Positions 19,834-52,376 of a DNA stretch of 64,000 nucleotides are shown in pieces. A program made the translations under genes and the position numbers. This DNA is from Nemertoderma westbladi. Lineage: Eukaryota > Animalia > Xenacoelomorpha. The DNA lies in the NCBI GenBank assembly GCA_032718475.1, contig JAUCBJ010001861.1, positions 141,851 through 205,850 of the forward strand, read 5' to 3'. Each line of letters starts with the position of its first letter. Position 1 is the first letter of the stretch. The notes under the pieces are model-generated. The model had not been told where the DNA came from. It worked only from the letters and a program-made list of their open reading frames with translations, and ran no database searches.

Positions 19834-21119
19834 TATAATAAGCGTAGGTGATGATCTATTAATAAAAAATTGAAATCCGGATATAGCTAGTAAATAATAG
19901 AAATAGACAGTAGGCCTAATACTGTCAAAATAATGCCATGCAGTAAGTAATCATAAGTTACCAAAATAAGAATTATAATGCTAGCTAGAACAAAATGGCC
20001 ATAAAGACAAACTTGTACTGTTTCGATACGCCTACCTACCCTTACGACATTTTTATACTTGCTAGTTTTTGCTACTTTTATAATGTTCTAGAATACGTTA
20101 GCTATTTATTTTAGAAAAATAGTTGTTCTAGAACAAATATTTATTCTTCTGGAACATTTTTAAAAACACAATATTACGATACATTATTGAATATTTATTA
20201 ATAAAATTCATCACATTGTTGTTACCTAACTTTCTAGATTTATTTACACGCAGCATTTACGCATACGTTCTGTGATACGTTGTTGCTTTGTAGCTAATAT
20301 GTCTACCAGGCATACTTTTAAGATTGATATAAATAGAGACCTAAATAGTGAGGAGACTATACTTCAGCTTTATTAAAAGCAAAATATAATTTTAAAAATA
20401 CTAACTAGTACTAAAATACTAGCTACCATGTCTCCAAAACGTAACTGTTTGATGTAAGACATATCTTAGTAAAGAAAAAAATGATATTTAAAATTTTGAA
20501 AAATAGCTATTTATTTAAATTTTCTAGTACAAAGTATTTTTTAGTTAAATAGCTAACATATTCTAGAACATTAAAAAAAAGTAGCAAAAACTAGGTATTA
20601 TAAAATATGTGGCATGGTAGGTACGCGTATCGAAACAGTACCGACAAACTCTAATTCTAGAACAAAAACGTACATATGCCCTGTGAAGACAAGTGAAGAT
20701 TAATTATGACATATAATAAATAACCACAAAAAACGAGTCTACATGCTACCTATAGTCCAGTTAATCTTGTGAAAAAGAGGGTGTAACTCAAAACAGATTC
20801 ACAAATCATCCGAAACAATTGTTTTTATTCTACATTATCTTGCTAATATCACCAAAAAAGTCTATAAAAATTAATTATTTGGAACACTTTCAATTCCATG
20901 CTTCTTTCCTTAGCATCAAGGATTTTGCATAGCATCAAATGGTCTATTGGTGGGATTTTCCCCAAATTAGGTACAGATCATCTTTAGACCAATGACTATA
21001 GAGTGACTGAACTACGCACTTCTACATAGTTACTAATTCCTAATTCAGTTTCCAGAGCAACGGAATATTTTATCTAATCATTTAGACATTTTTAATTCCA
21101 ATTTTGCTTGTACAATATA

Positions 21120-23950
21120 TGTAGCAACCATCAATTCGTTGTTCAAGTGATTTAGTCAGTGTCCAGGTCTCACCCCCGTATAAAAATACACTTTCCACTG
21201 TGGCTCGAAAGAACTTAGTCTTCAGGTGCCTGGAGAGATCTGATTTCCAGATGGTATCCATTTTTGATAGAGCTACCCAAGCCTTTGATTTCCTAACTTC
21301 TATGTCCTTTTTGCTACTCTCTATCCATGATCCAAGGTACTGGAAGTCGTCAACCTTCCTTAGTTGATTATTGTCAATGGTTGTCAAGTTTCCATCAACA
21401 TTAAAGGTCATGAATTCGGTCTTGGTAGCATTTATATGCAATCCAACCTCCTTAGCAGCCCTCTCCACTTTATTTAGTAGAAGCTGTGCATCTGCTAGGG
21501 TATTAGAGAGCAGGGCGATGTCATCCGCAAAGTCGGTGTCTGTGACTGTAGTTGCCGGATATCTACTACTTCTGCGTTCTTGAAGTGTGAATCCCAGGGC
21601 TTCACCCTTTGTGGCTGTCCTCATTGCGTAATCCAGCACAATTACAAATAGTAGTGGTGCTAATGTGTCACCTTGCAGTACCCCAGCCAGGATTGAGAAA
21701 AACTCAGTTTCACCATCTGGTGAGAGTACCTGCGCTTCTGTGTCACAATATAACAATCCAATGCCAGCAACAATTACTTCTGGTATTCCATAAGCTCTTA
21801 GGATTTCAAGCATTTTTTCTCTATGGATGGAGTCGAATGCCTTCTTGAAGTCCACGAGAGTCATGACTGCGGGGAGATTCTTTGACTTAATTCCTTCAAT
21901 CAGTCTCCGTAGTGCAAGTATCTGAGCTATTGTTGATCTACTTGGTCGAAATCCGTTTTGGCTCTTACGCAGTAGTTTCTCTATGTGAGGCCTAATCCTA
22001 TATAGAATCATTTTATTGTATATTTTGGCAGCTACCACAAGCAGACATATCCCACGATAGTTTGTTGGTATACCGCGGTCTCCTTTCTTGGGGAGAGGCT
22101 TTAGTTGACCTTTAGTCCAAATTGGGGTGGCTTTTCCCCTTTTAACATCCGGTTGCAAACATTCAATAATGGTCTGTTTAGCACTCCTGTTTTCCATACC
22201 TCCGCAGGGATTTCATCTAATCCACTCGCTTTATTATTGGACATGCTTTTAATGCTTCTTTGCAGTTCGGCAGGTGTGAAGTCCCCTGTTTCTATAGGTA
22301 GTGTCTTGTCATATATTTCCCTTGTAGGGCTGACCTCGATGTTTAGTGGCTGCCCAAGCAAGTTGCTGAAGTGATTTTTCCACTTCCCAACACGTTCTTC
22401 AGAGCTATCGGCTTTGAGGCGCCCCTTTGCACAACTTTTCCGACCAGATACCTCATTTACAGTTTGCCAGGTAAGTCTTGATTGTTGCTGTATGTGAGCA
22501 GTTGTAATTGCTTCAATTTTATCCTGTATGTACTTTTCATTGCTGATGTTGTAGGCCAATTTAAGATCGTCCTTAGCTTTCTCAACCCTGTTAATGTTTT
22601 CTGTTGTTGGTTGTTCGGTTTTAACTTTGTAGGCTATCTTAAGATCTTCTCTCTTACAAGTAACCTCAGAGTTTTGCCATGGCACATACTGTTTTCGTTT
22701 GGGTTTCTAGGGGATATGCCTCTTAGCTGATTCCTTGTGGGCTGTTATTATATTCTGGTATATTGAATCGGTGGACTGGTCTTCATCCATTGACTGAAGT
22801 GCTTCAAAGCGATTTTGAACTTCTACTGTGTAAGCATCCTTTACTGCATTGTCAGTTCTGAGTTTCTCCCAGTCATAGTTGAATTGCTTGCTTGTCCTGG
22901 GTTTGCTGGCTCTCAAACTGAGTCTGATCTCTGCAGTCACAATTCTGTGGTCCGAACCAATTAGGTTGAACGAGCTGTATGCCTCGCAGTTGATCATGCT
23001 GTTTCTCCACTTTTAGTTTATAAGGATGTAATCCAGTTGTGCTTTGGTTCCATTAGGGTATTGAAAGGTCCATAGCTTCCCCTTACTCTTTTAGAATGTG
23101 TTGTTTGTTGGTATCAATTCACATTCTTCCATTAGGTCTAAAGGTAAGTACCCATTTCTGTTAGAACTGGTGTTATAGGTGTAACCCTTGATGTCTACTG
23201 GGCCTATTTGCGCATTCAGGTCACCAGCAATGACTTTAACATTGTGTTTCGGAATGTCGTTTATAAGTCCAGTCAGTTCTTCATAAAACTTGACTGCTTG
23301 TTCTGGCTCTGAGGCATTGGTTGGACTGTAGCAACATATAACTGTTGTCTTGGGATTCCCATCAAATGTTGCGATCATAACCCTGGAATTTATAGATTCG
23401 ATGTTGTTTAGGGTTTTAAGTGCAACTGGGCTTAGCAGAATTCCTACTCCGCCAATTGATGCATTGGCCGAGTTTCTTACTGCTGAGCTTGTTACTAACG
23501 TCCATCCATTTCCAATGTCATTGTACTTTATGGCAGTGTCTTCATGACAAATCCGATGTTCTTGGATGCAGATGATGTCGATGTTATATTCCATTGCCAG
23601 AGCAACCATGTCACCCTGTTTGCTATGTGCTTTCGGCGTGTGTGTGTTCATTGTAGCAATCTTTAGTGTCGTTTTACATTTCAACAGGTTGGTTCTTCTT
23701 TCTTCTCTGTCTTCTGTTCCAGTAGCCAAGTGTTGACCCGGGCGACGACCGAGCCGGTATTTCTCCTAGAGGTTTCTCATACTCATATCTTTCAGTTGGG
23801 AGAGTAAACCGCTTGTGGTCGCAACTCCTACAAGCGTCTTCGCAGTAGGTCGCCGTTGGTTGATTACCTTCCGCCGACCTTGTCAGCATGTTTAGCCGTT
23901 GGTTGATTACCTTCCGCCTATCCATGGCCTACAGCCCTGCTGCCGACTGT
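21120..23950 (-). mobile_element. RTE-like LINE (APE endonuclease + reverse transcriptase), disrupted and 3'-truncated
   Basis: APE motifs (IICIQEHR, IAGDLNAQIG, SDHRIV); RT motifs (NYRGICLL, QNGFRPSRST, VDFKKAFDSI, GVLQGDTLAP, DFADDIALL, FQYLGS); ORF split by stops and frameshifts; ends at a repeat near 21120. Confidence 0.93.
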
Positions 23951-25000: not shown

Positions 25001-25227
25001 GCAGTCTGTAAGTCTGTGCCACTCGACATTAGAACAGAAAATCAAAATCGTCGTTCTCGGCATCTTATAAAAATAAATTCTTATTGTCGACTTGATAAAA
25101 TCTCTGAACCAAAACAAATCACAGAAAAAGGAAAATTTATTGACTTTTCACTCAGTACTTTACTCTTTTATCCACAATCCACAATATTCAAATTACCATT
25201 TGTATGTTTTTTGTGCAATTTATAGTA

Positions 25228-26095
25228 CACCATAACCCTTAATACAACAACCATTTTTAAGGGGTCGGAGCCCCCCCCCCCCCCCCCCCTAATTTTTTTC
25301 AAATTTCAATAAAATGCTACGAAATTCGGTATGATGATAGATCCTCACCTTTTCTTACTGGTGGCCTGGCCGGATTTTTCAATTTTCTCAGTTATTTTCA
25401 TACAACAATCCCTTAACAAAAGTCTATTTAGCAACTTTATTTTACGTCTTTGAAATGTAATCTAGATATCATTCGAAGCGCCTTCGTCTGTAGATTCCGA
25501 ATCTGAAACCCGTTTTAAATTTAACCAAAAATTGGTAAAGATATTATCAAAATACTAATGTGTAAATTCAGAGACGTAAATCGCTATAATTCTGATGTTT
25601 TGTTGTCTTTATTCTAGAATATTAATTATTATTTAAGCTGAGCGTTTAAAACTCTCCATCTTGTTTTTTCATTACCGATAATTAATATTCTAGAATTGAG
25701 TAAAAAAAACATTAGAATTATAGCGATTAACGTCACAAAAATTTAAACCTTGGTATTTTGATAATATCTTCGGAAGTTCTTGGCGAAATTTTCAACGGGT
25801 TTCAGATTCAGAATCTGCAGATGAAGGCGGTTCTAATGATATCTAGATTTCATTCCAAAGACGAAAAATAAAGCTGACGGAGGTGGCTAATTATTGCGAA
25901 ATAGACGATTTTTAACGGATTGTTGTATCGAAATAGCTCATCAATTAAAAAATCCGACCAGGCCACAAGTAAGAAAAGGTGTCGATCTATCATCATACCA
26001 AATTTCGTAGCATTTTATTGAAATTTGAAAAAAATTAGGGGGGGGGGGGGGGCTCCGACCCCCTAAAAATGGTTGTTGTATTAAGGGTTATGGTG
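25228..26095. mobile_element. Non-autonomous foldback/MITE-like DNA transposon, flanked by TA
   Basis: ta|CACCATAACCCTTAATACAACAACC ... GGTTGTTGTATTAAGGGTTATGGTG|ta; complementary arms with poly-C/poly-G tracts. Confidence 0.9.
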
Positions 26096-26382
26096 TATAT
26101 CAGCGGCAGAAAGAATGAATACCCTTGAAACCTCACTTTAGTAGTGATGACTATGTATATTCTAGAAATCCCATCTAATTGCACCGAATTTTTAAATAAC
26201 TAAAAAGTTTTTGTCCTATTCTAGATAGCGAGTGCTTCCTATACCTACATACATATGGGACAGTAATAATTCCAAATTATCTAATGTTGCTGCTTTCTGA
26301 TATCGCCGCGTCAGCAAAGACAAACAAATTAAGTGGTTGTTACAAGTGCATAAATGTTACCAAATCAACAGATTTTGGCAGT

Positions 26383-26889: not shown

Positions 26890-29800
26890 GTCAAATACAC
26901 CATGTTTAGTTGAAACTCTCACACAGTTGAATGTTTGTTTAGTTGAAACTCTCACACAGTTGAATGTTGAACATAACTATGTCAGGCTCAGTATGTACCA
27001 AATACACTATGTTTAGTTGAAACTCTCACACAGTTGAATGTTTGTTTAGTTGAAACTCTCACACAGTTGAATGTTTGTTTAGTTGAAACTCTCACACAGT
27101 TGAATGTTTGTTTAGTTGAAACTCTCACACAGTTGAATGTTTGTTTAGTTGAAACTCTCACACAGTTGAATGTTTGTTTAGTTGAAACTCTCACACAGTT
27201 GAATGTTTGTTTAGTTGAAACTCTCACACAGTTGAATGTTGAACATAACTATGTCAGGCTCAGTATGTACCAAATACACTATGTTTAGTTGAAACTCTCA
27301 CACAGTTGAATGTTTGTTTAGTTGAAACTCTCACACAGTTGAATGTTGAACATAACTATGTCAGGCTCAGTATGTACCAAATACACTATGTTTAGTTGAA
27401 ACTCTCACACAGTTGAATGTTGAACATAACTATGTCAGGCTCAGTATGTACCAAATACACTATGTTTAGTTGAAACTCTCACACAGTTGAATGTTGAACA
27501 TAACTATGTCAGGCTCAGTATGTACCAAATACACTATGTTTAGTTGAAACTCTCACACAGTTGAATGTTTGTTTAGTTGAAAGTCTCACACAGTTGAATG
27601 TTGAACATAACTATGTCAGGCTCAGTATGTACCAAATACACCATGTTTAGTTGAAACTCTCACACAGTTGAATGTTTGTTTAGTTGAAACTCTCACACAG
27701 TTGAATGTTGAACATAACTATGTCAGGCTCAGTATGTACCAAATACACTATGTTTAGTTGAAACTCTCACACAGTTGAATGTTGAACATAACTATGTCAG
27801 GCTCAGTATGTACCAAATACACTATGTTTAGTTGAAACTCTCACACAGTTGAATGTTGAACATAACTATGTCAGGCTCAGTATGTACCAAATACACTATG
27901 TTTAGTTGAAACTCTCACACAGTTGAATGTATGTTTAGTTGAAACTCTCACACAGTTGAATGTTTGTTTAGTTGAAACTCTCACACAGTTGAATGTTTGT
28001 TTAGTTGAAACTCTCACACAGTTGAATGTTGAACATAACTATGTCAGGCTCAGTATGTACCAAATACACTATGTTTAGTTGAAACTCTCACACAGTTGAA
28101 TGTTTGTTTAGTTGAAACTCTCACACAGTTGAATGTTTGTTTAGTTGAAACTCTCACACCGTTGAATGTTGAACATAACTATGTCAGGCTCAGTATGTAC
28201 CAAATACACTATGTTTAGTTGAAACTCTCACACAGTTGAATGTATGTTTAGTTGAAACTCTCACACAGTTGAATGTTTGTTTAGTTGAAACTCTCACACA
28301 GTTGAATGTTTGTTTAGTTGAAAGTCTCACACAGTTGAATGTTGAACATAACTATGTCAGGCTCAGTATGTACCAAATACACTATGTTTAGTTGAAACTC
28401 TCACACAGTTGAATGTTGAACATAACTATGTCAGGCTCAGTATGTACCAAATACACTATGTTTAGTTGAAACTCTCACACAGTTGAATGTTTGTTTAGTT
28501 GAAACTCTCACACAGTTGAATGTTTGTTTTGTTGAAAGTCTCACACAGTTGAATGTTGAACATAACTATGTCAGGCTCAGTATGTACCAAATACACTATG
28601 TTTAGTTGAAACTCTCACACAGTTGAATGTTTGTTTAGTTGAAACTCTCACACAGTTGAATGTTTGTTTAGTTGAAACTCTCACACAGTTGAATGTTGAA
28701 CATAACTATGTCAGGCTCAGTATGTACCAAATACACTATGTTTAGTTGAAACTCTCACACAGTTGAATGTTTGTTTAGTTGAAACTCTCACACAGTTGAA
28801 TGTTTGTTTAGTTGAAACTCTCACACAGTTGAATGTTTGTTTAGTTGAAACTCTCACACAGTTGAATGTTGAACATAACTATGTCAGGCTCAGTATGTAC
28901 CAAATACACTATGTTTAGTTGAAACTCTCACACAGTTGAATGTTTGTTTAGTTGAAAGTCTCACACAGTTGAATGTTTGTTTAGTTGAAACTCTCACACA
29001 GTTGAATGTTTGTTTAGTTGAAACTCTCACACAGTTGAATGTTTGTTTAGTTGAAAGTCTCACACAGTTGAATGTTGAACATAACTATGTCAGGCTCAGT
29101 ATGTACCAAATACACTATGTTTAGTTGAAACTCTCACACAGTTGAATGTTGAACATAACTATGTCAGGCTCAGTATGTACCAAATACACTATGTTTAGTT
29201 GAAACTCTCACACAGTTGAATGTATGTTTAGTTGAAACTCTCACACAGTTGAATGTTTGTTTAGTTGAAACTCTCACACAGTTGAATGTTTGTTTAGTTG
29301 AAACTCTCACACAGTTGAATGTTGAACATAACTATGTCAGGCTCAGTATGTACCAAATACACTATGTTTAGTTGAAACTCTCACACAGTTGAATGTTTGT
29401 TTAGTTGAAACTCTCACACAGTTGAATGTTGAACATAACTATGTCAGGCTCAGTATGTACCAAATACATTATGTTTAGTTGAAACTCTCACACAGTTGAA
29501 TGTTTGTTTAGTTGAAACTCTCACACAGTTGAATGTTTGTTTAGTTGAAAGTCTCACACAGTTGAATGTTGAACATAACTATGTCAGGCTCAGTATGTAC
29601 CAAATACACTATGTTTAGTTGAAACTCTCACACAGTTGAATGTTGAACATAACTATGTCAGGCTCAGTATGTACCAAATACACTATGTTTAGTTGAAACT
29701 CTCACACAGTTGAATGTTTGTTTAGTTGAAACTCTCACACAGTTGAATGTTTGTTTTGTTGAAAGTCTCACACAGTTGAATGTTGAACATAACTATGTCA

Positions 29801-32800
29801 GGCTCAGTATGTACCAAATACACTATGTTTAGTTGAAACTCTCACACAGTTGAATGTTGAACATAACTATGTCAGGCTCAGTATGTACCAAATACACTAT
29901 GTTTAGTTGAAACTCTCACACAGTTGAATGTTTGTTTAGTTGAAACTCTCACACAGTTGAATGTTTGTTTAGTTGAAACTCTCACACAGTTGAATGTTGA
30001 ACATAACTATGTCAGGCTCAGTATGTACCAAATACACTATGTTTAGTTGAAACTCTCACACAGTTGAATGTTTGTTTAGTTGAAACTCTCACACAGTTGA
30101 ATGTTTGTTTAGTTGAAACTCTCACACAGTTGAATGTTTGTTTAGTTGAAACTCTCACACAGTTGAATGTTGAACATAACTATGTCAGGCTCAGTATGTA
30201 CCAAATACACTATGTTTAGTTGAAACTCTCACACAGTTGAATGTTTGTTTAGTTGAAAGTCTCACACAGTTGAATGTTTGTTTAGTTGAAACTCTCACAC
30301 AGTTGAATGTTTGTTTAGTTGAAACTCTCACACAGTTGAATGTTTGTTTAGTTGAAAGTCTCACACAGTTGAATGTTGAACATAACTATGTCAGGCTCAG
30401 TATGTACCAAATACACTATGTTTAGTTGAAACTCTCACACAGTTGAATGTTGAACATAACTATGTCAGGCTCAGTATGTACCAAATACACTATGTTTAGT
30501 TGAAACTCTCACACAGTTGAATGTATGTTTAGTTGAAACTCTCACACAGTTGAATGTTTGTTTAGTTGAAACTCTCACACAGTTGAATGTTTGTTTAGTT
30601 GAAACTCTCACACAGTTGAATGTTGAACATAACTATGTCAGGCTCAGTATGTACCAAATACACTATGTTTAGTTGAAACTCTCACACAGTTGAATGTTTG
30701 TTTAGTTGAAACTCTCACACAGTTGAATGTTGAACATAACTATGTCAGGCTCAGTATGTACCAAATACACTATGTTTAGTTGAAACTCTCACACAGTTGA
30801 ATGTTTGTTTAGTTGAAACTCTCACACAGTTGAATGTTTGTTTAGTTGAAAGTCTCACACAGTTGAATGTTGAACATAACTATGTCAGGCTCAGTATGTA
30901 CCAAATACACTATGTTTAGTTGAAACTCTCACACAGTTGAATGTTGAACATAACTATGTCAGGCTCAGTATGTACCAAATACACTATGTTTAGTTGAAAC
31001 TCTCACACAGTTGAATGTTTGTTTAGTTGAAACTCTCACACAGTTGAATGTTTGTTTTGTTGAAAGTCTCACACAGTTGAATGTTGAACATAACTATGTC
31101 AGGCTCAGTATGTACCAAATACACTATGTTTAGTTGAAACTCTCACACAGTTGAATGTTTGTTTAGTTGAAACTCTCACACAGTTGAATGTTTGTTTAGT
31201 TGAAACTCTCACACAGTTGAATGTTTGTTTAGTTGAAACTCTCACACAGTTGAATGTTGAACATAACTATGTCAGGCTCAGTATGTACCAAATACACTAT
31301 GTTTAGTTGAAACTCTCACACAGTTGAATGTTTGTTTAGTTGAAACTCTCACACAGTTGAATGTTTGTTTAGTTGAAACTCTCACACAGTTGAATGTTTG
31401 TTTAGTTGAAACTCTCACACAGTTGAATGTTGAACATAACTATGTCAGGCTCAGTATGTACCAAATACACTATGTTTAGTTGAAACTCTCACACAGTTGA
31501 ATGTTTGTTTAGTTGAAAGTCTCACACAGTTGAATGTTTGTTTAGTTGAAACTCTCACACAGTTGAATGTTTGTTTAGTTGAAACTCTCACACAGTTGAA
31601 TGTTTGTTTAGTTGAAAGTCTCACACAGTTGAATGTTGAACACAACTATGTCAGGCTCAGTATGTACCAAATACACTATGTTTAGTTGAAACTCTCACAC
31701 AGTTGAATGTTTGTTTAGTTGAAACTCTCACACAGTTGAATGTTTGTTTAGTTGAAACTCTCACACAGTTGAATGTTGAACATAACTATGTCAGGCTCAG
31801 TATGTACCAAATACACTATGTTTAGTTGAAACTCTCACACAGTTGAATGTTTGTTTAGTTGAAACTCTCACACAGTTGAATGTTTGTTTAGTTGAAACTC
31901 TCACACAGTTGAATGTTTGTTTAGTTGAAACTCTCACACAGTTGAATGTTTGTTTAGTTGAAACTCTCACACAGTTGAATGTTTGTTTAGTTGAAACTCT
32001 CACACAGTTGAATGTTTGTTTAGTTGAAACTCTCACACAGTTGAATGTTGAACATAACTATGTCAGGCTCAGTATGTACCAAATACACTATGTTTAGTTG
32101 AAACTCTCACACAGTTGAATGTTTGTTTAGTTGAAACTCTCACACAGTTGAATGTTGAACATAACTATGTCAGGCTCAGTATGTACCAAATACACTATGT
32201 TTAGTTGAAACTCTCACACAGTTGAATGTTTGTTTAGTTGAAACTCTCACACAGTTGAATGTTTGTTTAGTTGAAACTCTCACACAGTTGAATGTTTGTT
32301 TAGTTGAAACTCTCACACAGTTGAATGTTTGTTTAGTTGAAACTCTCACACCGTTGAATGTTGAACATAACTATGTCAGGCTCAGTATGTACCAAATACA
32401 CTATGTTTAGTTGAAACTCTCACACAGTTGAATGTTGAACATAACTATGTCAGGCTCAGTATGTACCAAATACACTATGTTTAGTTGAAACTCTCACACA
32501 GTTGAATGTTGAACATAACTATGTCAGGCTCAGTATGTACCAAATACACTATGTTTAGTTGAAACTCTCACACAGTTGAATGTTTGTTTAGTTGAAACTC
32601 TCACACAGTTGAATGTTTGTTTTGTTGAAAGTCTCACACAGTTGAATGTTGAACATAACTATGTCAGGCTCAGTATGTACCAAATACACTATGTTTAGTT
32701 GAAACTCTCACACAGTTGAATGTTGAACATAACTATGTCAGGCTCAGTATGTACCAAATACACTATGTTTAGTTGAAACTCTCACACAGTTGAATGTTGA

Positions 32801-33613
32801 ACATAACTATGTCAGGCTCAGTATGTACCAAATACACCATGTTTAGTTGAAACTCTCACACAGTTGAATGTTTGTTTAGTTGAAACTCTCACACAGTTGA
32901 ATGTTGAACATAACTATGTCAGGCTCAGTATGTACCAAATACACTATGTTTAGTTGAAACTCTCACACAGTTGAATGTTGAACAACTACGTCAGGCTCAG
33001 TATGTACCAAATTCACTATGTTTAGTTGAAACTCTCACACAGTTGAATGTTTGTTTAGTTGAAACTCTCACACAGTTGAATGTTTGTTTAGTTGAAACTC
33101 TCACACAGTTGAATGTTTGTTTAGTTGAAACTCTCACACAGTTGAATGTTTGTTTAGTTGAAACTCTCACACAGTTGAATGTTTGTTTTGTTGAAAGTCT
33201 CACACAGTTGAATGTTGAACATAACTATGTCAGGCTCAGTATGTACCAAATACACTATGTTTAGTTGAAACTCTCACACAGTTGAATGTTGAACATAACT
33301 ATGTCAGGCTCAGTATGTACCAAATACACTATGTTTAGTTGAAACTCTCACACAGTTGAATGTTGAACATAACTATGTCAGGCTCAGTATGTACCAAATA
33401 CACCATGTTTAGTTGAAACTCTCACACAGTTGAATGTTTGTTTAGTTGAAACTCTCACACAGTTGAATGTTTGTTTTGTTGAAAGTCTCACACAGTTGAA
33501 TGTTGAACATAACTATGTCAGGCTCAGTATGTACCAAATACACTATGTTTAGTTGAAACTCTCACACAGTTGAATGTTGAACAACTACGTCAGGCTCAGT
33601 ATGTACCAAATTC
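26890..33613. repeat. Intronic two-module satellite: (33 bp) x 1-7 alternating with a near-invariant 41 bp module
   Basis: 33-mer tgtttagttgaaactctcacacagttgaatgtt; 41-mer gaacataactatgtcaggctcagtatgtaccaaatacacta. Confidence 0.98.
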
Positions 33614-34730
33614 ACTTACGCGATCTGCTCTTTCATTCCCACCGAGATTCACACTCACAATTAACCTGCTAAGAGCTGAATAATAGACCTGAAAATGTAG
33701 CTAATATTATTAATAGACAAGCTGGATTTCATCTGGCCTCATGTAATGTTTTAGAATTAGAATAAATTATTAAACTAAAATTTGCTTGTTTCTAATTAAG
33801 TTACTAATGTCCTTGTTTTCGTTACGATTTTAACATGCTAATTATATTGTGGAATTTAAAGTTGTCAATTTGAAACTTTTTATGCATCAATAGGACCAAA
33901 TTACAAACTATCAGACACCATCGAGAACAACAGACTCACACTAGACTTAACGTCCCGTCATTTCTTGTTCCTATTCCGTTTAAGCTAAAAATCAGCAGGA
34001 ATATACTATAACCATTAACTAGATATTTTTTGGAAGCACATTCGTCTGCAGTTCTCCAGTCTGCCGCTAGAGGGTGATATGAAAGTGAAAACCTTAAATG
34101 TCTTAGTTTATAATACGTTCAAGCTGAAACTAGCCAGATATGGAATGGACTACAGCGCTGCGCCTTTGTGTGAACGGTGATCCATCACATTTTGCTTATT
34201 ATTGCTATTGGCAAACTGTGTTTTTCGAGGTGTTTGTAATTTTACATGGATTATATAGGGAACTGTTCTAGGGGTCTTAACCTCGAATTATAAGTGGATT
34301 TTCACAAAAATAACTTATCTTTTATTGGCGCAATTGTAGGACTAATCCCATCACATGCGTAATTTTTATTGAAATTAATACCTCATATATCTCCAAACCA
34401 TGTACGCGTTTAGACCTTACTGGGTCTGTTCAGCGTGGTGTCGGATTCGAACCTCGGAACTCGAATTGGAAGCCGTGACAATTTGGCTTATAGACCTAAT
34501 TCATTAAAGTTAACAATTAACATAAATTTATCACACGTGTGCTACGCATAGGTCCCAATTCGTGTATTTGATATACTTATATCTCTGTATATAGCTATCA
34601 GTAGTGGGTCTATTTGGAAATTTAATTAATTAATTATTAATAAATTATAATTTTTGGGAAGTTTCGGGAAATTAGATGGATGGACATTAGTAACTTAGCA
34701 AGAAGTTAGCAAGGCCAATATTTAATGTAC

Positions 34731-35624: not shown

Positions 35625-38600
35625 ACTAACCTAACAGATGGGTAACCCATACCAGTACACTAACCTAACTGCTGGGTAACCCATCCCAGTACACACTAAC
35701 CAAACTGATGGGTAACCCATCCCAGTGCACTAAATTAACTGATGTGTAACCCATCCCAGTACACACTAACCTAACTGCTGTGTAACCCATCCCAGTACAC
35801 GCTAACCTAACTGCTGGGTAACCCATCCCAGTACTCTAACCTAACTGATGGGTAGCCCATCCCAGTACACTAAATTAACTGATGTGTAACCCATCCCAGT
35901 ACACACTAACCTAACTGCTGGGTAACCCATCCCAGTACACACTAACCTAACTGTTGGGTAGACCATCCCAGTACACTAACCTAACTGATGGGTAACCCAT
36001 CCCAGTACACTAAATTAACTGATGTGTAACCCATCCCAGTACACACTAACCTAACTGCTGGGTAACCCATCCCAGTACACACTAACCTAACTGCTGGGTA
36101 ACCCATCCCAGTACACTAACCTAACTGATGGGTAACCCATTCTAGTACACACTAACCTAACTGTTGGGTAACCCATCCCAGTACACACTAACCTAACTGA
36201 TGGGTAACCCATCCCAGTACACTAAATTAACTGATGTATAACCCATCCCAGTGCACACTAACCTAACTGCTGGGTAACCCATCCCAGTACACACTAACCT
36301 AACTGCTGGGTAACCCATCCCAGTACACTAACCTAACTGATGGATAACACATTCCAGTACACACTAACCTAACATATGGGTAAGACATCCCAGTACACTA
36401 ACCTAACTGATGGGTAACCAATCCCAGTACACACTAACCTAACTGATGGGTAACCCATCCCAGTACACACTAACCTAACTGCTGGGTAACCCATCCCAGT
36501 ACACTAACCTAACTGATGGGTAACCCATTCCAGTACACACAAACCTAACTGATGGGTAACCCATCCCAGTACACACTAACCTAACTGATGGGTAACCCAT
36601 CCCAATACAGACTAACCTAACTGCTGGGCAACCCATCCCAGTACACACAAACCTAACTGTTGGGTAACCCATCCCAGTACACACTAACCTAACTGCTGGG
36701 TAACCCATCCCAGTACATACTAACCTAACTGTTGGGTAGCCCATCCCAGTACACTAACCTAACTGTTGGGTAGCCCATCCCAGTACACTAACCTAACTGC
36801 TGGGTAGCCCCTCCCAGTACACTAACCTAACTGTTGGGTAGCCCATCCCAGTACACTAACCTAACTGTTGGGTAGCCCATCCCAGTACACTAACCTAACT
36901 GTTGGGTAGCCCATCCCAGTACACTAACCTAAATGATGGGTGGCCCATCCCAGTACACTAACCTAACTGTTGGGTAGCCCATCCCAGTACACTAACCTAA
37001 ATGATGGGTAGCCCATCCCAGTACACTAACCTAACTGATGGGTAGCCCATCCCAGTACACTAACCAAACTGTTGGTTAGCCCATCCCAGTACACTAACCT
37101 AACTGTTGGGTAGCCCATCCCAGTACACTAACCTAACTGTTGGGTAGCCCATCCCAGTACACTAACCTAACTGTTGGGTAGCCCATCCCAGTACACTAAC
37201 CTAAATGATGGGTGGCCCATCCCAGTACACTAACCTAACTGATGGGTAGCCCATCCCAGTACACTAACCTAACTGATGGGTGGCCCATCCCAGTACACTA
37301 ACCTAACTGATGGGTGGCCCATCCCAGTACACTAACCTAACTGTTGGGTAGCCCCTCTCAGTACACTAAACTATAACTCTTTGAGTTGATGCCCATATGA
37401 GGGATATTAGGCAAACATATGAGGCACGTTGAGCGTGACACTGTGAAACCAATGGAAGGGCCTCTGACCGAGCCATTAGCTGCTGGATGGTGTCTGTTTC
37501 CGCTCACTGCCAGAGTGGATAAATCTGTCTCCCTTTCCACGAGGGAGGATAATATATTGTTGGGGAACACGTTGGCCTACGTCTAAAGCTGCGGTCACGG
37601 CTGTCTGGGCACTCTGTGCAAGGAAAGGGATTAACTGGAAGTTGGGTTTGATCAGATAGCGTAATGCAGGTCTCCACATGTTGCACCCACAGGTATTAGT
37701 CCGAAGGACTCGTGCCCAAGGCTTCCTGTGGGTTCAGGTTCTGTCAGTCCGAGGGACCTTGTGCCTAAGGCGTTTTCCTGGATAGTATTTCGGGTAAATA
37801 GAGTGTGAGGGCTTGGATGAGTGCGCAAGCTGTCTCAGTCTCTAACAACTCCGAGGTGACCCCACAAACTGGTAGCAAACTGCGATGTAGCAACCTGCGC
37901 GTAAGTCGGTTTAACGTGCCACTTGGACAAGGACAGTGGTTAAATTGCGGCACCAGGATGTGAGGTATTGACTACACCTCCGCATTAAAGACGTTGACCC
38001 TTCGGGGAATCCCTCCATGATACTGAAGTAATGCGTAGAAAGTCCAACCGCCCACCTCCCTGTGGTAAGAGTTGGTAATAGGATTGGCACTCCTAGCAAA
38101 GCGGCGGCAATGGCACAAGGACAGAGGTGTTCATCCAACCATGGTAACTTCATTAGTTAACATGAGAGTCTATGTTGATATGGGAGTTATGCTCGGGGTC
38201 GTGTGTGTTTGGCTGCCCACTGAGTCCTACCCGTGGCTCAGTGGTCTACAGCCTCTCACATGTGGCCCCAGTCTCGAGCCGCGATTACTGCTGATAACCT
38301 ATAACCTAGCTGTTAGATTTACAGCTCTAGGCGGTCGTTGGATTAGATAGCTCCTCGCTTGGGGTCTACGGTTCGTGGTCACTGCATCATCCACGGTTAC
38401 GTAGTTAACTCGATTGCGGTCTGGCAAGAGTGACAGCCACACTTGCCCAGTCAGTAGAGCCAGTCAAGGGGGTCACATCTGTTGAATGGAACGTAGGGAG
38501 GTCCTGAGCTATAGCACACTGCCCTTTAAACACACCAGTGTGCACCTCCAACTGCAGTAGTAGCATATTGCCGACCTGCAATACGGTAATTCCAACGTAA

Positions 38601-39531
38601 AGCCGAGTCTGGTGAACTATGCTCCACTAGGGTTGACATCTGACCCACGCACTCAATGGGATCCTGCCATACCAGAGCACAACACTAGCTGGTATGCCCA
38701 TATGAGACACCGCATGTGGCAGCGAAATCTACACACCCGGAAACGACACCAACACCAACTGTGTTAAGGTGCATGTTTGGAAGCGTGTCGAGGGGCGGAG
38801 CGTATACCAGGTGAAATTCGAGTGCTCTTAGTAACGGCAGGTGGCTCTGCCGTCGTTCTGACGGTTTGGCAAATCAGGGGAACGGCGGTGAGTAACTATG
38901 ACTCTCTTAAGGTGGCCCATCCCAGTACACTAACCTAACTGTTGGGTAGCCCCTCTCAGTACACTAACCTAACTGTTGGGTAGCCCATCCCAGTACACTA
39001 ACCTAACTGTTGGGTAGCCCATCCCAGTACACTAACCTAACTGTTGGGTAGCCCATCCCAGTACACTAACCTAACTGATGGGTGGCCCATTCCAGTACAC
39101 TAACCTAACTGTTGGGTAGCCCCTCCCAGTACACTAACCTAACTGTTGGGTAGCCCCTCCCAGTACACTAACCTAACTGATGGGTGGCCCATCCCAGTAC
39201 ACTAACCTAACTGTTGGGTAGCCCCTCCCAGTACACTAACCTAACTGATGCGTGGCCCATCCCAGTACACTAACCTAACTGATGGGTGGCCCATCCCAGT
39301 ACACTAACCTAACTGATGGGTGGCCCATCCCAGTACACTAACCTAACTGATGGGTGGCCCATCCCAGTACACTAACCTAACTGTTGGGTAGCCCATCCCA
39401 GTACACTAACCTAACTGTTGGGTAGCCCATCCCAGTACACTAACCTAACTGTTGGGTAGCCCATCCCAGTACACTAACCTAACTGTTGGGTAGCCCATCC
39501 CAGTACACTAACCTAACTGATGGGTGGCCCA
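35625..39531. repeat. Intronic 34/36 bp satellite (~65 units) derived from the exon 5 end plus donor site, interrupted by an insertion
   Basis: Unit cccatcccagtacactaacctaactgWtgggtRg; the last unit overlaps exon 5. Confidence 0.95.
37370..38910 (+). mobile_element. 1541 bp non-coding insertion with 57 bp TSD and a 28S rRNA target-like end (putative non-autonomous retroelement; strand inferred)
   Basis: 37313-37369 is identical to 38911-38967, including a variant seen nowhere else in the array; ends in aacggcggtgagtaactatgactctcttaa; no long ORF. Confidence 0.8.
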
Positions 39532-41849: not shown

Positions 41850-42450
41850 CCACCCCCACCAACAAGGGCAACCTAACACTATTTGGATCCTTTCGTGGAA
41901 TCTCACTGATCTCGATTGCTGCAAAGTTATACAATAGAATTATATTAAATCGCATTAGGGATCCCATTGAGAAACTGCTCCGTGGAAATCAGAATGGAGC
42001 CCATTTTGGCACTTAGACGGATAATTGAAGAGTTATCAAAAAAGAAAGACAGGCATCTGGCTGTTATCTTTGTTGACTTCTTCAAGGCCTTTGATTCAGT
42101 CTCTCGCTCACGTATATTCAGCATACTTTCATTATATGGGATTCCTGATGAAATTATTGCAGCAATCAGATCAGTATACGATGGTTAGACAACATTTGTG
42201 TCTACTGTTGACGGTAACACAGAACCATTTGAAGTGTTATGGGGCGTCCTCCAGGGAGACACACTTGCACCATTCTTGTTCAATAATTGTGGTTGATTAT
42301 GTTCTACGCATGTCCTTAGATCATCATAATGATGACTGGGTGATGATAACTCCAACTACTGGCTCCAGAAGTCGAGGAAATCCTGCCAAGTTCAAGTACC
42401 TAACTGATCTAGACTTTGCTGATGACTTAGGAGTACTCTCAGAATCACTA
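41850..42450 (+). mobile_element. Decayed RTE-like RT fragment in intron 3
   Basis: FRGISLISIAAKLYNRIILNRI, FVDFFKAFDSV, GVLQGDTLAPFLF, LDFADDL across frameshifts. Confidence 0.85.
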
Positions 42451-42884
42451 GGGAGTCCATTCTGGGCAAACAATTTTATTTCTTTACAGAAACTTGGAAC
42501 TGAGCCTACTCTTAACTTTCGAGAAAATAATTTTCACAGTGCTTTCTCCAGACAAGCAGTTATCCTAAAATGGCGCCTAAATATTATTTAACCTCTATTT
42601 TCTTTTCTTTCTTACATCCATTACTAGCTACTTTAGCTAATGACCAATCAAAATGCTTTCAGTCTTACTGTAGCGAAAAGCTAAACTAAAAACTCATTAC
42701 ATGATTCTAGTAATGTACTAAATCTTTGGGAAATAACGAAACTAGTTCAATGTCATCAGCATATAAAATGTTTTTAAAATTGTTATCTATACCATTGAAC
42801 ATGGCACCTTATAAACATTATTGACACATTTCTTATTTTGAGACAAGTGCCCCTGTTGCTTCCATTAAGATTGTATTAACCTAC

Positions 42885-43079: not shown

Positions 43080-46000
43080 ATGCTAACGGTAGGTCTTCGT
43101 GCTGATGGTCGGTTTCCGTGCTGACGGTAGGTCCTTGTGCTAATGGTAGGTCTCCGTGCTGATGTTAGGTCCTCGTGCTGACGGTAGGTCCTTGTGCTAA
43201 TGGTAGGTCTCCGTGATGATGTTAGGTCCTCGTGCTGACGGTAGGTCCTTGTGCTAATGGTAGGTCTCCGTGCTGACGGTAGGACCTTGTGCTAATGGTA
43301 GGTCTCCGTGCTGATGTTAGGTCCTCGAGCTGATGGTAGGTCCTTGTGCTAATGGTAGGTCTCCGTGCTGACGGTAGGTCCTTGTGCTAATGGTAGGTCT
43401 CCGTGCTGATGTTAGGTCCTCGTGCTGACGGTAGGTATCCGTGCTGACGGTAGGTCTCCGTGCTGATGTTAGGTCCTCGTGCTGACGGTAGGTATCCGTG
43501 CTGACGGTAGGTCCCCGTGCTGACAGTAGGTATCCGTGCTGACGGTAGGTCCTCGTTGTGACGGTAGGTCCTTGTGCTGACGGTAGGTATCCGTGCTGAC
43601 GGTAGGTCCTCGTTGCAACGGTAGGTCCTCGTGCTGACAGTAGGTCTCCGTGCTGACGGTAGGTCCCCGCGCTGACAGTAGGTATCCGTGCTGACAGAAG
43701 GTCCTCGTTGTGACGGTAGGTCCTTGTGCTGACGGTAGGTATCCGTGCTGACGGTAGGACCCCGTGCTGACAGTAGGTATCCGTGCTGACGGTAGGTCCT
43801 CGTTGTGACGGTAGGTCCTCGTGCTGACAGTAGGTCTCCGTGCTGACGGTAGGTCCTTGTGCTAATGGTAGGTCTCCGTGCTGACAGTAGGTCCCCGTGC
43901 TGACAGTAGGTATCCGTGCTGACGGTAGGTCCTCGTTGTGACGGTAGGTCCTCGTGCTGACAGTAGGTCTCCGTGCTGACGGTAGGTTCTCGTGCTGACG
44001 GTAGGTCCTTGTGCTAATGGTAGGTCTCCGTGCTGACGGTAGGTCCTTGTGCTAATGGTAGGTATCCGTGCTGACGGTAGGTATCCGTGCTGACGGTAGG
44101 TCCTTGTGCTAATGGTAGGTCCTCTAGCTGACGGTAGGTCCTTGTGCTAATGGTAGGTCTCCGTGCTGACGGTAGGTCCTTGTGCTAATGGTAGGTCTCC
44201 GTGCTGATGTTAGGTCCTCGTGCTGACGGTAGGTATCCGTGCTGACGGTAGGTCTCCGTGCTGATGGTAGGTCCTAGTGCTGACAGTAGGTCTCAGTGCT
44301 GAAGGTAGGTCCTTGTGCTGACGTTAGGTCTCCGTGCTGACGGTAGGTCCTCGTGCTGACGGTAGGACTCCATGCTGACTGTAGGTCCTCATGCTGACAG
44401 TAGGTTTCCGTGCTGACGGTAGGTCCTCGTGCTGACAGTAGGTCCTCGTGCTGACGTTAGGTCTCCGTGCCGACGGTAGGTCCTTGTGCTGACGGTAGAT
44501 CTCCGTGCTGACGTTAGGTCCCCGTGCTGACAGTAGGTATCCGTGCTGACGGTAGGACCTTGTGCTGATGGTAGGTCCTCGAGCTGACGGTAGGTCCGTG
44601 CTGACGGTAGGTCCTCGTGCTGATGGTAGGTCTCCGTGCTGATGGTAGGTCCTCGTGCTGACGGTAGGTCCTCGTGTTGATGGTAGGTCCTCGTTGTGAC
44701 GGTAGGTCCTCGGTAAGTCCTCATGGTGACGGTAGGTCCTCGTGGTGATGGGAGGTCCTCGTGGTGACGGTAGGTCCTTGTGGTGACGGTAGGTCCTCGT
44801 GGTGAGGGTAGGTCCTCGTGGTGACAGTAGGTCCTCGGTAAGTCCTCGTGGTGACGGAAGGTCCTCGTGGTGACGGTAGGTCCTCATGGTGACGGTAGGT
44901 CTCCGTGCTGACGGTAGGTTCTCGTGCTGACGGTAGGTCCTCGTGGTGACGGTAGGTCCTCGTGGTGACAGTAGGTCCTCGGTAAGTCCTCGTGGTGACG
45001 GAAGGTCCTCGTGGTGACGGTAGGTCCTCATGGTGACGGTAGGTCTCCGTGCTGACGGTAGGTCCTCGTGGTGATGGTAGGTCCTCGTGGTGATGGTAGG
45101 TCCTCGGCTGACTGTAGGTCTCCGTGCTGACGGTGGGTCCTCGTGCTGACGGTAGGTCCTCGTGGTGACGGACGGTCTCCGTGCTGACGGTAGGTCCTCG
45201 TGCTGACATTACGTCTCCGTGCTGACGGTAGGTCCTCGTGCTTACGGTAGGACTCCATGCTGACTGTAGGTCCTCATGCTGACAGTAGGTTTCAGTGCTG
45301 ACGGTAGGTCCTCGTGCTGACAGTAGGTCCTCGTGCTGACGTTAGGTCTCCGGGCTGACGGTAGGTCCCTGTGCTGACAGTAGGTCTCCGTGCTGACGAT
45401 GGGCCCTCGTGTTGAGAAGTAGGTCCTCGTGCTGACTAGTACTAGGGTCGGCATGCTGCATTGCACCTGCATTTTTAAGAATGCTGTGCTGGCTTGTCGA
45501 CAAAATTGCGCCTCCACTACTCCCTATCACCCATGACATTTGCTAGATCATCCGCATCTTCAAGGCCAGTGTCCTTTAAGATGCGTCTCAAGAAAGTCAT
45601 AGGCTGTCCACCATGCTTATTCACTCCATGAGGCTGCCAAAGTACAAGATTATGTACTGGCTGGTCCTCACGGCGAAAGCAATATCCTGCAAAGCGGAGG
45701 CGATTTTGTTCTAGTGTCAAGCTTGGGGGAACCAATGCGACACCTCCAATGTTATATAGTTTCTGGTTGGAGATGTGTGCATTGTACTTGACACAATGAA
45801 CCCGGCGTAGCATTCTTGTGAATGTGCCATCCAGAGATTTGGTGTCCTCAGCAGTGAGAGCCCGTGCTGACGGTAGGTCCGTGCTGACGGTAGGTCCTCG
45901 TGGTGACGGTAGGTCCTCGTGGTGACGGTAGGTCCTTGTGGTGACGGTAGGTCCTTGTGGTGACGGTAGGTCCTCGTGGTGATGGTAGGTCCGTGCTGAC

Positions 46001-46340
46001 GGTAGGTCCTCGTGGTGACGGTAGGTCCTCGTGGTAACGGTAGGTCCTCGTTGTGACGGTAGGTCCTCGTGGTGACGGTAGGTCCTTGTGGTGACGGTAG
46101 GTCCTCGTGGTGACGGTAGGTCCTCGTGGTGACGGTAGGTCCTCGTGGTGACGGTAGGTCCTCGTGGTGACGGTAGGTCCTCGTGGTTACGGTAGGTCCT
46201 CGTGGTGAGGGTAGGTCCTCGTGGTAAGGGTAGGTCCTCGTGCTGACGGTAGGTCCTCGTTGTGACGGTAGGTCCTCGTGCTGACGGTAGGTCCTCGTGG
46301 TGACGGTAGGTCCTCGTGGTGACGGTAGGTCCGCGCTCAC
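43080..46340. repeat. Intronic 19 bp satellite (gtgStgacggtaggtcctc), ~150 units, interrupted by a LINE fragment
   Basis: 19 bp periodicity read directly. Confidence 0.97.
45440..45860 (-). mobile_element. 3' fragment of an RTE-like LINE within the 19 bp satellite
   Basis: SLDGTFTRMLRR...ISNQKLY...RLRFAGYCFR...LVLWQP, typical of the RTE ORF C-terminus. Confidence 0.8.
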
Positions 46341-46751
46341 AGTAGTCTTGTAAATAATCATGACGTAGACCTACACTAATAATTAATTATAGCAAAATCA
46401 AAATCAAGTTTAGAGCTAATAAAAAAGCACTACTGTAGCTACAATAAATTCGCTAGCTACTAACGAGATTTTTGTAGCAATATTTGAGAATTTATTATTA
46501 AATATTCTAGAATATTATTATTTGTTGTAGAATATTCACAAGAATTTAAGATAATAGCTAAAGCTAACATGTTCTAGGATATTTTCAAATAAAAATTGCA
46601 AACACTTGTTAGGATAAAAAATTGCAAAGTATTTCCCACATATATACGATACACATTGTATAATAAAACTTCAGAAATAATAGTCGTATACAGAACTGTT
46701 ACCATTATTTTACGACATAAAATGTATACTAGATGTCTGTAAATATGTCAC

Positions 46752-50899: not shown

Positions 50900-52376
50900 T
50901 GGAGAGCGGCGGTGAAAGGAGAGCGGCGGTGAAAGGAGAGCGGCGGTGAAAGGAGAGCGGCGGTGAAAGGAGAGCGGCGGTGAAAGGAGAGCGGCGGTGA
51001 AAGGAGAGCGGCGGTGAAAGGAGAGCGGCGGTGAAAGGAGAGCGGCGGTGAAAGGAGAGCGGCGGTGAAAAGTTGCAACTGATAACGTGGTAGCGGACCC
51101 CGGAACTGTTCCTTGCAACTGATAACGTGGTAGCGGACCCCGGAACTGTTCCTTGCAACTGATAACGTGGTAGCGGACCTGAACTGTTCCTTGCAACTAA
51201 TAACGTGGTAGCGGACCTGAACTGTTCCTTGCAACTGATAACGTGGTAGCGGACCCCTGAACTGTTCCTTGCAACTAATAACGTGGTAGCGGACCCCGGA
51301 ACTGTTCCTTGCAACTGATAACGTGGTAGCGGACCTGAACTGTTCCTTGCAACTGATAACGTGGTAGCGGACTCCGGAACTGTTCCTTGCAACTGATAAC
51401 GTGGTAGCGGACCCCTGAACTGCTCCTTGCAACTGATAACGTGGTAGCGGACCTGAACTGTTCCTTGCAACTGATAACGTGGTAGCGGACTCCGGAACTG
51501 TTCCTTGCAACTGATAACGTGGTAGCGGACCTGAACTGTTCCTTGCAACTGATAACGTGGTAGCGGACCCCGGAACTGTTCCTTGCAACTGATAACGTGG
51601 TAGCGGACCTGAACTGTTCCTTGCAACTGATAACGTGGTAGCGGACCCCGGAACTGGTCCTTGCAACTGATAACGTGGTAGCGGACCTGAACTGTTCCTT
51701 GCAACTGATAACGTGGTAGCGGACCTGAACTGTTCCTTGCAACTGATAACGTGGTAGCGGACCTGAACTGTTCCTTGCAACTGATAACGTGGTAGCGGAC
51801 CTGAACTGTTCCTTGCAACTGATAACGTGGTAGCGGACCCCGGAACTGTTCCTTGCAACTGATAACGTGGTAGCGGACCTGAACTGTTCCTTGCAACTGA
51901 TAACGTGGTAGCGGACCTGAACTGTTCCTTGCAACTGATAACGTGGTAGCGGACCGGAACTGTTCCTTGCAACTGATAACGTGGTAGCAGACCCCGGAAC
52001 TGTTCCTTGCAACTGATAACGTGGTAGCGGACCCCTGAACTGTTCCTTGCAACTGATAACGTGGTAGCGGACCCCTGAACTGCTCCTTGCAACTGATAAC
52101 GTGGTAGCGGACCTGAACTGTTCCTTGCAACTGATAACGTGGTAGCGGACCCCGGAACTGTCCCTTGCAACTGATAACGTGGTAGCGGACCCCGGAACTG
52201 TTCCTTGCAACTGATAACGTGGTAGCGGACCCCGGAACTGTCCCTTGCAACTGATAACGTGGTAGCGGACCCCGGAACTGTTCCTTGCAACTGATAACGT
52301 GGTAGCGGACCCCGGAACTGTTCCTTGCAACTGATAACGTGGTAGCGGACCTCGGAACTGTTCCTTGCAACTGATA
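50900..52376. repeat. Compound satellite: 17 bp unit (~10 copies) then 38/40 bp unit (~33 copies)
   Basis: gagagcggcggtgaaag; ttgcaactgataacgtggtagcggaccccggaactgttcc. Confidence 0.97.

What the first reader, a model, noticed from the sequence alone, without database searches (positions are those of the whole stretch)
38881..38917. The insertion ends in the 28S rRNA R2/I-PpoI target sequence and rebuilds that site with the flank
Seen: AACGGCGGtGAGTAACTATGACTCTCTTAA|GGTgGCC. Known: eukaryotic 28S reads AACGGCGGGAGTAACTATGACTCTCTTAAGGTAGCC; this is the R2 insertion site (AAGG^TAGC), the I-PpoI site (CTCTCTTAA^GGTAGC) and the Pokey TTAA site. The match has one extra T and one A>G, and the junction falls at the cleavage position. 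In normal R2 insertions this upstream 28S sequence lies 5' of the element, not at its 3' end. Inference: either (a) a parasite of R2-type machinery that carries the upstream half-target and regenerates a target after each insertion, or (b) an element normally inserted ~30 nt upstream in rDNA whose read-through 28S tail annealed to GGTRGCC to prime an ectopic insertion. Either would be an unusual rDNA-linked retroelement system.
Basis: partly seen in the sequence, partly recalled or inferred. Interest (0 to 1): 0.85.

Follow-up and report, generated by a model that had tools for sequence, protein, structure and literature searches.

The report
R2 passenger ending in its target
The ribosomal sequence is the tail of a 1.5-kb non-coding repeated element that starts with a predicted self-cutting RNA and likely borrows the enzyme of the R2 jumping gene; ending in the front half of R2's landing site is unusual, but whether it really re-creates a usable site is untested.

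Summary
The match is real: 35 of 37 letters equal the 28S R2 site. It ends a 1.54-kb non-coding insertion (37370-38912) in a 34-bp minisatellite. New here: (1) a 55-57 bp target-site duplication flanks it; (2) it holds the window's only HDV-like ribozyme core, whose only P1 partner is the element's own 28S-like first seven bases, so the 28S piece is truly at the 3' end; (3) other copies, including a subfamily about 14% diverged beside it, keep the tail with its extra base, and two or three different flanks begin at the same AAGG-T point and resemble the downstream half-site. So it is not a one-off capture. Best reading: a SIDE-like R2 passenger with a fixed upstream-28S tail, here inserted off target. 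Not shown: a copy inside 28S, the partner enzyme, arrays, or re-use of the rebuilt site; the extra base falls in R2's upstream recognition motif. Autonomous fish and Hydra R2s with 28S-like 3' ends are in print. The scan has found 28S-headed R2 passengers in other genomes; my look-ups found none with this tail.

The parts
35625..37373 (.). Host minisatellite, left part (34/36-bp units, about 50 copies); each unit holds GG-T(A/G)(A/G)CC
37313..37369 (+). Left copy of a 57-bp direct duplication (55 bp if the GG is counted to the element); likely target-site duplication
   Evidence: the 57-mer occurs only here and at 38911; it carries a unit variant found in only these two of about 69 units
37370..38912 (+). 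The insertion: about 1.54 kb, 51% GC against 35-37% around it, non-coding, multi-copy
   Evidence: longest stop-free frame 93 codons; 0 of 17 ORFs reach a Pfam cut-off
37369..37393 (+). 28S-like head: AACTAT (28S -19 to -14) then a decayed copy of 28S -13 to about +6
   Evidence: local score 28, reached by 3 of 1438 windows in the element body
37375..37381 (+). Predicted P1 5' strand (AACTCTT); predicted self-cleavage just before 37375
   Evidence: 7 of 7 pairs with P1 3' strand; only partner within 800 nt upstream; other copies start at 37374-37385
38048..38107 (+). Predicted HDV-like ribozyme core: P2 38048-52/38103-07, P3 38054-56/38064-66, L3 38057-63, P1 3' strand 38067-73, P1.1 GG 38074-75, P4 38079-95, catalytic C 38097; J1/2 about 665 nt
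   Evidence: drz-agam-1, E 2.8, below gathering score; descriptor scan
38845..38892 (+). Predicted RNA hairpin that pairs the first 12 bases of the 28S tail, including the extra T
   Evidence: -21.4 kcal/mol, z -3.66; one compensatory pair (38865/38873) and one G-U to A-U change in other copies, one pair broken
38881..38912 (+). 3' tail: 28S -31 to -1 with one inserted T (38889)
38911..38967 (+). Right copy of the 57-bp duplication; its first bases complete the R2 site (7 of 9 identical over -2 to +7)
38911..39531 (.). Host minisatellite, right part (18 units)

Best explanation
The 28S piece is the shared 3' tail of a 1.54-kb non-coding repeated element that is likely a passenger of an R2-type retrotransposon, and this copy is likely an off-target insertion. 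Inferred cycle: a source copy, probably in 28S rDNA, is co-transcribed; its predicted HDV-like ribozyme pairs the element's own 28S-derived first seven bases and would cut out the 5' end; an R2-family protein would copy the RNA by target-primed reverse transcription. Because the RNA ends in 28S -31 to -1 and would read through into TAGCC, it can pair with look-alike DNA, which would explain insertion at GG-TGGCC in the minisatellite; a distant second nick would give the 55-57 bp duplication. The tail was likely captured once, by read-through from an ancestor that lay about 31 nt upstream, and then fixed with an extra T. The site it rebuilds has an intact nick motif but a shifted upstream motif, so it is probably a weakened target. 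Shown: boundaries, duplication, non-coding state, shared tail, flanks. Predicted: ribozyme, hairpin. Inferred: partner enzyme, rDNA home, read-through priming, origin of the tail.
For: Duplication of 57 bp with a private unit variant on both sides. Single HDV-like core in 64 kb on both strands; its only P1 partner lies at the 5' boundary; element shuffles give the core in 6, core plus P1 in 1, and P1 in the first 15 nt in 0 of 3000. P1 pairs 7 of 7 with the head and 6 of 7 with 28S -13, the pattern described for sea-squirt R2 B and C; P1 separations over 700 nt are known (PMC3774820). Other copies leave the reference at 37374-37385 into several different left flanks, one of which carries a 13-nt 28S-identical stretch; one 1423-nt contig begins with GACTCTT at this point. 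11 of 13 contigs laid on the 3' end cover the extra base and none lacks it, including one with 7 substitutions and 2 gaps in the 64 nt before the tail. Exits fall right after AAGG-T in the window and in a flank seen in three runs; both match 28S +2 to +7 at 4 of 6, which 3.5% of background positions do. T at +1, essential for R2Bm cleavage (PMC10499050), is kept in every exit seen.
Against: No junction with real 28S, no partner ORF and no array was seen; no genome is held and contigs cannot show absence. The ribozyme descriptor was relaxed after a first scan found nothing, Rfam scores the core below threshold, the core alone does not fold better than shuffles (z +0.95), P2 needs an unpaired base, and this copy has A, not G, at the base of P1. 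A 55-57 bp duplication is not typical of canonical R2 (2-bp deletion to small duplications; 9 bp R8, 126 bp R9; PMC6895275). The empty minisatellite site matches only 1-2 of 4 nick-motif bases and has no upstream motif, so cutting by an R2Bm-like enzyme there is doubtful. A high-depth related form leaves the reference at 38817 and was not seen to carry the tail; in one run it ends in poly(A) there. No sequence shared with any autonomous element was found.
Confidence: 0.62

Rival explanations
1. The element really ends near the extra T and inserts about 23-31 nt upstream of the R2 site; the rest of the tail is host 28S copied by read-through each time an off-target copy is made.
For: The 24 bases after the T are identical to 28S in all 101 loci by construction of the search and unchanged in diverged copies; R2Hm-B was first read as inserted 15 bp upstream (PMC5035012). 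The host's own 28S was not seen.
Against: Exits fall at the canonical R2 nick, not at scattered read-through lengths. The head pairs as a -13 type P1, which fits the normal R2 site. The bases before the T are also 28S-like and pair in a hairpin with element sequence.
Confidence: 0.13
2. The 28S piece is the 5' leader of a second R2-type element lying downstream (joined by a template jump or by insertion into the rebuilt site); the common CACC-starting flank is that element's start, and the window copy was cut off at the join.
For: Many R2 RNAs begin 9-36 nt upstream in 28S and template jumps are known (PMC3774820, PMC3414825). The CACC flank runs on for 291 nt in three runs.
Against: The window copy is bounded by a duplication that ends exactly at the tail; a second flank branches at the same base in two runs and a diverged copy exits nearby into a third sequence. 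Only 30 letters of the flank were visible, so it could not be tested for a ribozyme.
Confidence: 0.12
3. The element has an R2-derived head but is moved by another LINE with an AP endonuclease (for example RTE-type), which primes at short homologies and leaves long duplications; the 28S tail only biases where it lands.
For: Long duplication and poor R2Bm motifs at the empty site. RT and AP-endonuclease ORFs of such a LINE lie in the window. R2/R1 hybrid SIDEs show that heads and enzymes can be mixed (PMC3414825).
Against: No shared 3' sequence with the three LINE pieces in the window (best E 0.065 over 13 nt); no simple-repeat tail on this copy; exits coincide with the R2 nick.
Confidence: 0.1
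4. One-off capture of an rRNA fragment at a DNA break.
For: Only one copy lies in the window.
Against: The tail with its extra base is in 11 of 11 covering contigs from three runs and in diverged subfamilies, with different flanks.
Confidence: 0.03

Closest known systems
R2 SIDE and R2/R1 hybrid SIDEs of Drosophila (PMC3414825; abstract and passages read)
   Same: Non-coding, headed by an R2-type HDV-like ribozyme, likely moved in trans.
   Different: R2Dwi_SIDE is 529 bp, lies in 28S, ends in an R2 3' UTR plus poly(A) and has a known partner. This one is 1.54 kb, has a 665-nt J1/2, ends in upstream 28S, was seen only outside rDNA, and has a 55-57 bp duplication.
Fish R2 lineage with 28S-like 3' UTR (R2Gs, R2Pt, R2Bs-A/B, R2Sb) and Hydra R2Hm-B (PMC5035012; abstract, passages and section 14 read; figure not held)
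   Same: Element ends in sequence like the 28S upstream of the R2 site; R2Hm-B may carry 15 bp of 28S at its 3' end.
   Different: Those are autonomous, and the fish elements replace 110-130 bp of 28S, so their tail stands in for lost sequence. Here the element is non-coding and is 28S-like at both ends.
Sea-squirt R2Ci-B/C and earwig R2 5' junctions (PMC3774820; parts 1-6 of 7 read)
   Same: 5' end made from a duplicated 28S piece with a P1 one pair longer than with 28S itself; earwig carries 22 bp of downstream 28S at its 5' end, the mirror image of target rebuilding.
   Different: Autonomous, and the extra 28S is at the 5' end only.
R1 tandem arrays and R9 (PMC2718515 passages; PMC6895275 passages)
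   Same: Target sequence is restored on insertion (R1, 14-bp duplication, arrays follow); long duplication (R9, 126 bp).
   Different: There the site is restored by the duplication, not by an element-borne tail; other target positions.

Membership tests
R2 SIDE | No coding capacity | tested here: met
   Longest stop-free frame 93 codons; 0 of 17 ORFs reach a Pfam cut-off
R2 SIDE | R2-type HDV-like ribozyme defining the 5' end | tested here: met
   Structure predicted only; activity not tested; descriptor relaxed
R2 SIDE | Copies inserted at the R2 site inside 28S genes | tested here: inconclusive
   No 28S junction among 13 contigs on the 3' end; the tool drops human-like contigs without notice; flanks seen are non-rDNA look-alikes
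R2 SIDE | 3' end identical to the 3' UTR of a co-resident R2 | not testable with these tools
   No genome held
R2 SIDE | R2-type junctions (small deletion or short duplication) | tested here: not met
   55-57 bp duplication at this off-target copy; junctions in 28S unseen. It is therefore called SIDE-like, not a SIDE
Autonomous R2/R8/R9 | ORF with zinc finger/Myb, RT and restriction-like endonuclease | tested here: not met
Functional R2 target (R2Bm rules, PMC10499050) | Nick motif T-6 T-5 A-3 T+1 | tested here: met
   4 of 4 in the rebuilt site
Functional R2 target (R2Bm rules, PMC10499050) | Upstream motif A-31, G-27, C-26, A-22 at the right distance | tested here: inconclusive
   2 of 4 in register, 3 of 4 at +1; a +1 shift is tolerated by R2Bm; the host's enzyme may differ
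Pokey / piggyBac MITE | Terminal inverted repeats and TTAA duplication | tested here: not met
   No inverted pair at the ends among 8 found; duplication is 57 bp with no TTAA on the left
Group I intron with I-PpoI-type endonuclease | Intron fold and location in an rRNA gene | tested here: not met
   No Rfam hit at gathering score, none to an intron family at E up to 10; flanks are minisatellite
tRNA-derived SINE | tRNA-like head | tested here: not met
   0 genes by ARAGORN; no tRNA hit

The most novel reading that the evidence does not exclude
A non-coding R2 parasite that leaves a working R2 target at its own 3' end after every insertion in 28S, so that later R2s or further passengers dock directly behind it; the downstream element's ribozyme then trims the passenger's 3' end, and the same tail seeds new R2 landing sites across the genome. 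The extra T and the hairpin would tune how strongly the site is re-cut.
Probability: 0.2. Interest if true: 0.72.

Novelty: new variant of a known kind. Interest (0 to 1): 0.48.

Why it matters
R2 proteins are being built into gene-insertion tools whose templates carry short 28S arms. A natural template with upstream 28S at its 3' end shows what such an arm does over evolutionary time: whether it restores the target, allows stacking of inserts at one site, or steers insertions to look-alike sites with long duplications. It also extends SIDE-like passengers beyond Drosophila to another animal group and gives a direct test of the idea, raised for fish R2s, that 28S-like 3' ends stabilise the insertion intermediate. 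If the rebuilt site is dead, it is a modest addition: one more off-target R2 passenger with an odd tail.

Tried and rejected
An 11-bp target deletion (my first reading): replaced by a 55-57 bp duplication once the private unit variant was seen; a pre-existing two-unit duplication plus an 11-bp loss is not excluded, and pairs of private variants do occur elsewhere in the array at other spacings. A second, decayed 28S copy at 38800-38845: not significant (shuffle p 0.07; 70 of 1347 body windows score as well), and 28S -140 to -31 does not align (p 0.86). Upstream likeness of the minisatellite to 28S: 11 of 33, reached by 22% of positions; only -2 to +7 is unusual (7 of 9; 0.09% of positions outside the array; tied best of 68 positions in the unit). 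Circular-RNA (retrozyme-like) origin: head and tail differ, so they are not one copied junction (inference from sequence). Head-to-tail arrays: no joint from the 3' end to the 5' end among the 7 joints and 4 short-insert rows; contigs cannot show absence. No RNA holder listed. First ribozyme scan found nothing because it demanded an unbroken P2. Exact tail with the T: 0 hits in metagenome contigs; 24-nt core: 0 in viral contigs. Sequence look-up in earlier findings: nothing. Host placement failed: PP2A B56 is 64-73% identical to lancelet, lamprey, mussel and arthropod proteins alike. The flank letters shown by the read tool were compared by eye only.

Full report
Observation. Window 38881-38917 matches the eukaryotic 28S R2 site at 35 of 37 positions, with an inserted T at 38889 and A>G at 38914. 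The score is 30 against 10-13 for 20 shuffled windows. The junction can be read at 38910/38911 or at 38912/38913 because GG(T) fits both sides.

Setting. The host is an invertebrate animal that I could not place; no genome is held. The match ends a 1.54-kb block of 51% GC that interrupts a 34/36-bp minisatellite. The block has no ORF over 93 codons and no Pfam match at cut-off in the 17 longest of 25 ORFs, no Rfam hit at gathering score, no tRNA and no terminal inverted repeats. A 57-bp stretch is repeated exactly on both sides (37313-37369 and 38911-38967); it occurs nowhere else in the window and carries a unit variant found only in these two places. I read this as a target-site duplication of 55-57 bp. 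An older two-unit duplication followed by an 11-bp loss is possible but needs a coincidence.

Orientation and 5' end. An Rfam scan at loose threshold gave a weak drz-agam-1 match at 38032-38087 (E 2.8). A descriptor scan, relaxed after a first version failed, finds one HDV-like core in the whole window on both strands, at 38048-38107, with the conserved L3 bases, P1.1, P4 and catalytic C; its P1 3' strand has one perfect partner within 800 nt upstream, at 37375-37381, the element's left boundary. Shuffles of the element give the core in 6, core plus P1 in 1 and P1 in the first 15 nt in 0 of 3000. The head itself looks like a decayed 28S -19 to +6 (3 of 1438 body windows score as well) and pairs 7 of 7, against 6 of 7 for true 28S -13. 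Eickbush et al. (PMC3774820, parts 1-6 of 7 read) describe this arrangement for sea-squirt R2 B and C, -13 cleavage in other R2s, and P1 halves over 700 nt apart. Against: the core does not fold well alone (z +0.95; its P1 partner is absent and the folding program has no pseudoknots), and this copy has A at the base of P1; a G-to-A change there cut activity almost tenfold in a stick-insect R2 (PMC4370867, passages).

Other copies. Four public runs of the same coded organism (at most three samples) hold the element. 179 contigs were laid (68, 33, 77 and 1); the tables were cut (20 of 51 loose ends, 27 of 200 pieces shown). Copies differ by up to about 10-15% with many non-triplet indels. Left ends leave the reference at 37374-37385 into at least four different flanks; one flank holds a 13-base stretch identical to upstream 28S, another repeats the head. 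In run X4 a single 1423-nt contig begins with GACTCTTAAG at this point and ends in poly(A) after 38817, and the minisatellite has no depth there; this looks like a ribozyme-trimmed RNA of a related form, but the run is not on record as RNA and contigs cannot show RNA ends, so it is a hint only. On the 3' end 13 contigs were laid in three runs, none in X4. 11 cover the extra base and none lacks it (9 shown exact there; 2 show no gap there). One subfamily has 7 substitutions and 2 gaps in the 64 nt before the tail and none in the next 30 (chance 0.01-0.03; weak, since contigs end where they merge). After AAGG-T the contigs continue into a CACC-starting flank (three runs, 291 nt) and, in two runs, a second flank that branches at the same base (inferred from two contigs starting at the same point with 0.68 agreement). 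A diverged copy exits after 38903 into TGAGGTACC. The window flank and the CACC flank each match 28S +2 to +7 at 4 of 6, a level reached by 3.5% of background positions. A high-depth related form leaves at 38817 and was not seen with the tail. No contig joined the tail to 28S or to the head; the tool drops human-like contigs without notice, so 28S joins may be invisible.

Is the target rebuilt? By the R2Bm rules (PMC10499050, passages) the nick motif is intact, 4 of 4, but the extra T lies inside the upstream motif: 2 of 4 key bases in register, 3 of 4 shifted by one, a shift R2Bm tolerates. In RNA the first 12 tail bases are predicted to pair in a hairpin (z -3.66) whose inner stem shows one compensatory change in another subfamily. 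The empty minisatellite site has 1-2 of 4 nick bases and no upstream motif, so this insertion was more likely primed by pairing of the RNA end than by normal recognition.

Mechanism. Most likely (0.62) a SIDE-like passenger of an R2-family element, with a fixed upstream-28S tail, launched from rDNA and landing here off target. Rivals: true site 23-31 nt upstream with read-through (0.13); tail as leader of a downstream element (0.12); another LINE as enzyme (0.10); one-off capture (0.03). Shown are the boundaries, duplication, shared tail and flanks; ribozyme and hairpin are predicted; enzyme, rDNA home and priming are inferred.

Known relatives. Drosophila SIDEs (PMC3414825, abstract and passages) are the working model, but one defining feature (R2-type junction) is not met at this copy and two could not be settled, so I do not file it as a member. 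28S-like 3' ends are in print for seven fish R2s and R2Hm-B (PMC5035012, abstract, passages, section 14). Off-rDNA R2 copies and R1 arrays are in PMC2718515 (passages); the R8 and R9 duplication lengths are from PMC6895275 (passages). PMC13188248 (abstract, passages), PMC12203849, PMC4838377 and PMC4844689 (passages) added nothing on this point. I found no non-autonomous element with an upstream-28S 3' tail in ten searches; the library lacks most subscription papers, including the original Hydra and R9 reports, I saw no figures and read no supplements, and Repbase was not available. Earlier scan notes report 28S-headed R2 passengers outside rDNA in other genomes; these are unchecked and concern 5' ends.

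Verdict. Real, family-wide and a new variant of a known kind; interest 0.48. The bold reading, a self-renewing landing site, has about one chance in five and is directly testable.

Noticed in passing
window 56689-63465 (-): A 2258-codon uninterrupted ORF that reads like Spen/SHARP (RRM-like start, SPOC-like end; recalled, not scanned); apparently without introns over this span.
   Followed up: no
window 10692-12467 (-): Single-exon PP2A B56 regulatory subunit (PF01603), 64-73% identical to named animal proteins.
   Followed up: partly
window 15981-17015 (-): Single-ORF tetraspanin-like protein of 344 codons (by eye, not scanned).
   Followed up: no
window 21082-23765 (-), 42025-42591 (+), 45517-46386 (-): Pieces of an AP-endonuclease LINE, probably RTE-type; the first has RVT_1 and Exo_endo_phos matches and is broken into several frames.
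   Followed up: partly
window 18922-19835 and 25226-26097: Two fold-back elements of about 0.9 kb with long inverted arms, shared TACACCAT ends and poly-C/poly-G tracts; likely one MITE family, with related pieces at 18580 and 63830.
   Followed up: no
window 3802-9117, 26903-33616, 43081-46332, 51073-52376: Several large minisatellites (44, 33/74, 19 and 40-bp units); the 19-bp array interrupts a LINE piece.
   Followed up: no
window 38200-38265: Strong hairpin in the element body (z -3.61); role unknown.
   Followed up: partly
window 37389-37401 and 38694-38706: A 13-bp direct repeat near both ends of the element; may be chance.
   Followed up: no
L059, L064, L067, L003, L095 (28S loci, just after the R2 site): The sequence leaves 28S within about 20 bases downstream of the site; probably introns or other insertions.
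   Followed up: no
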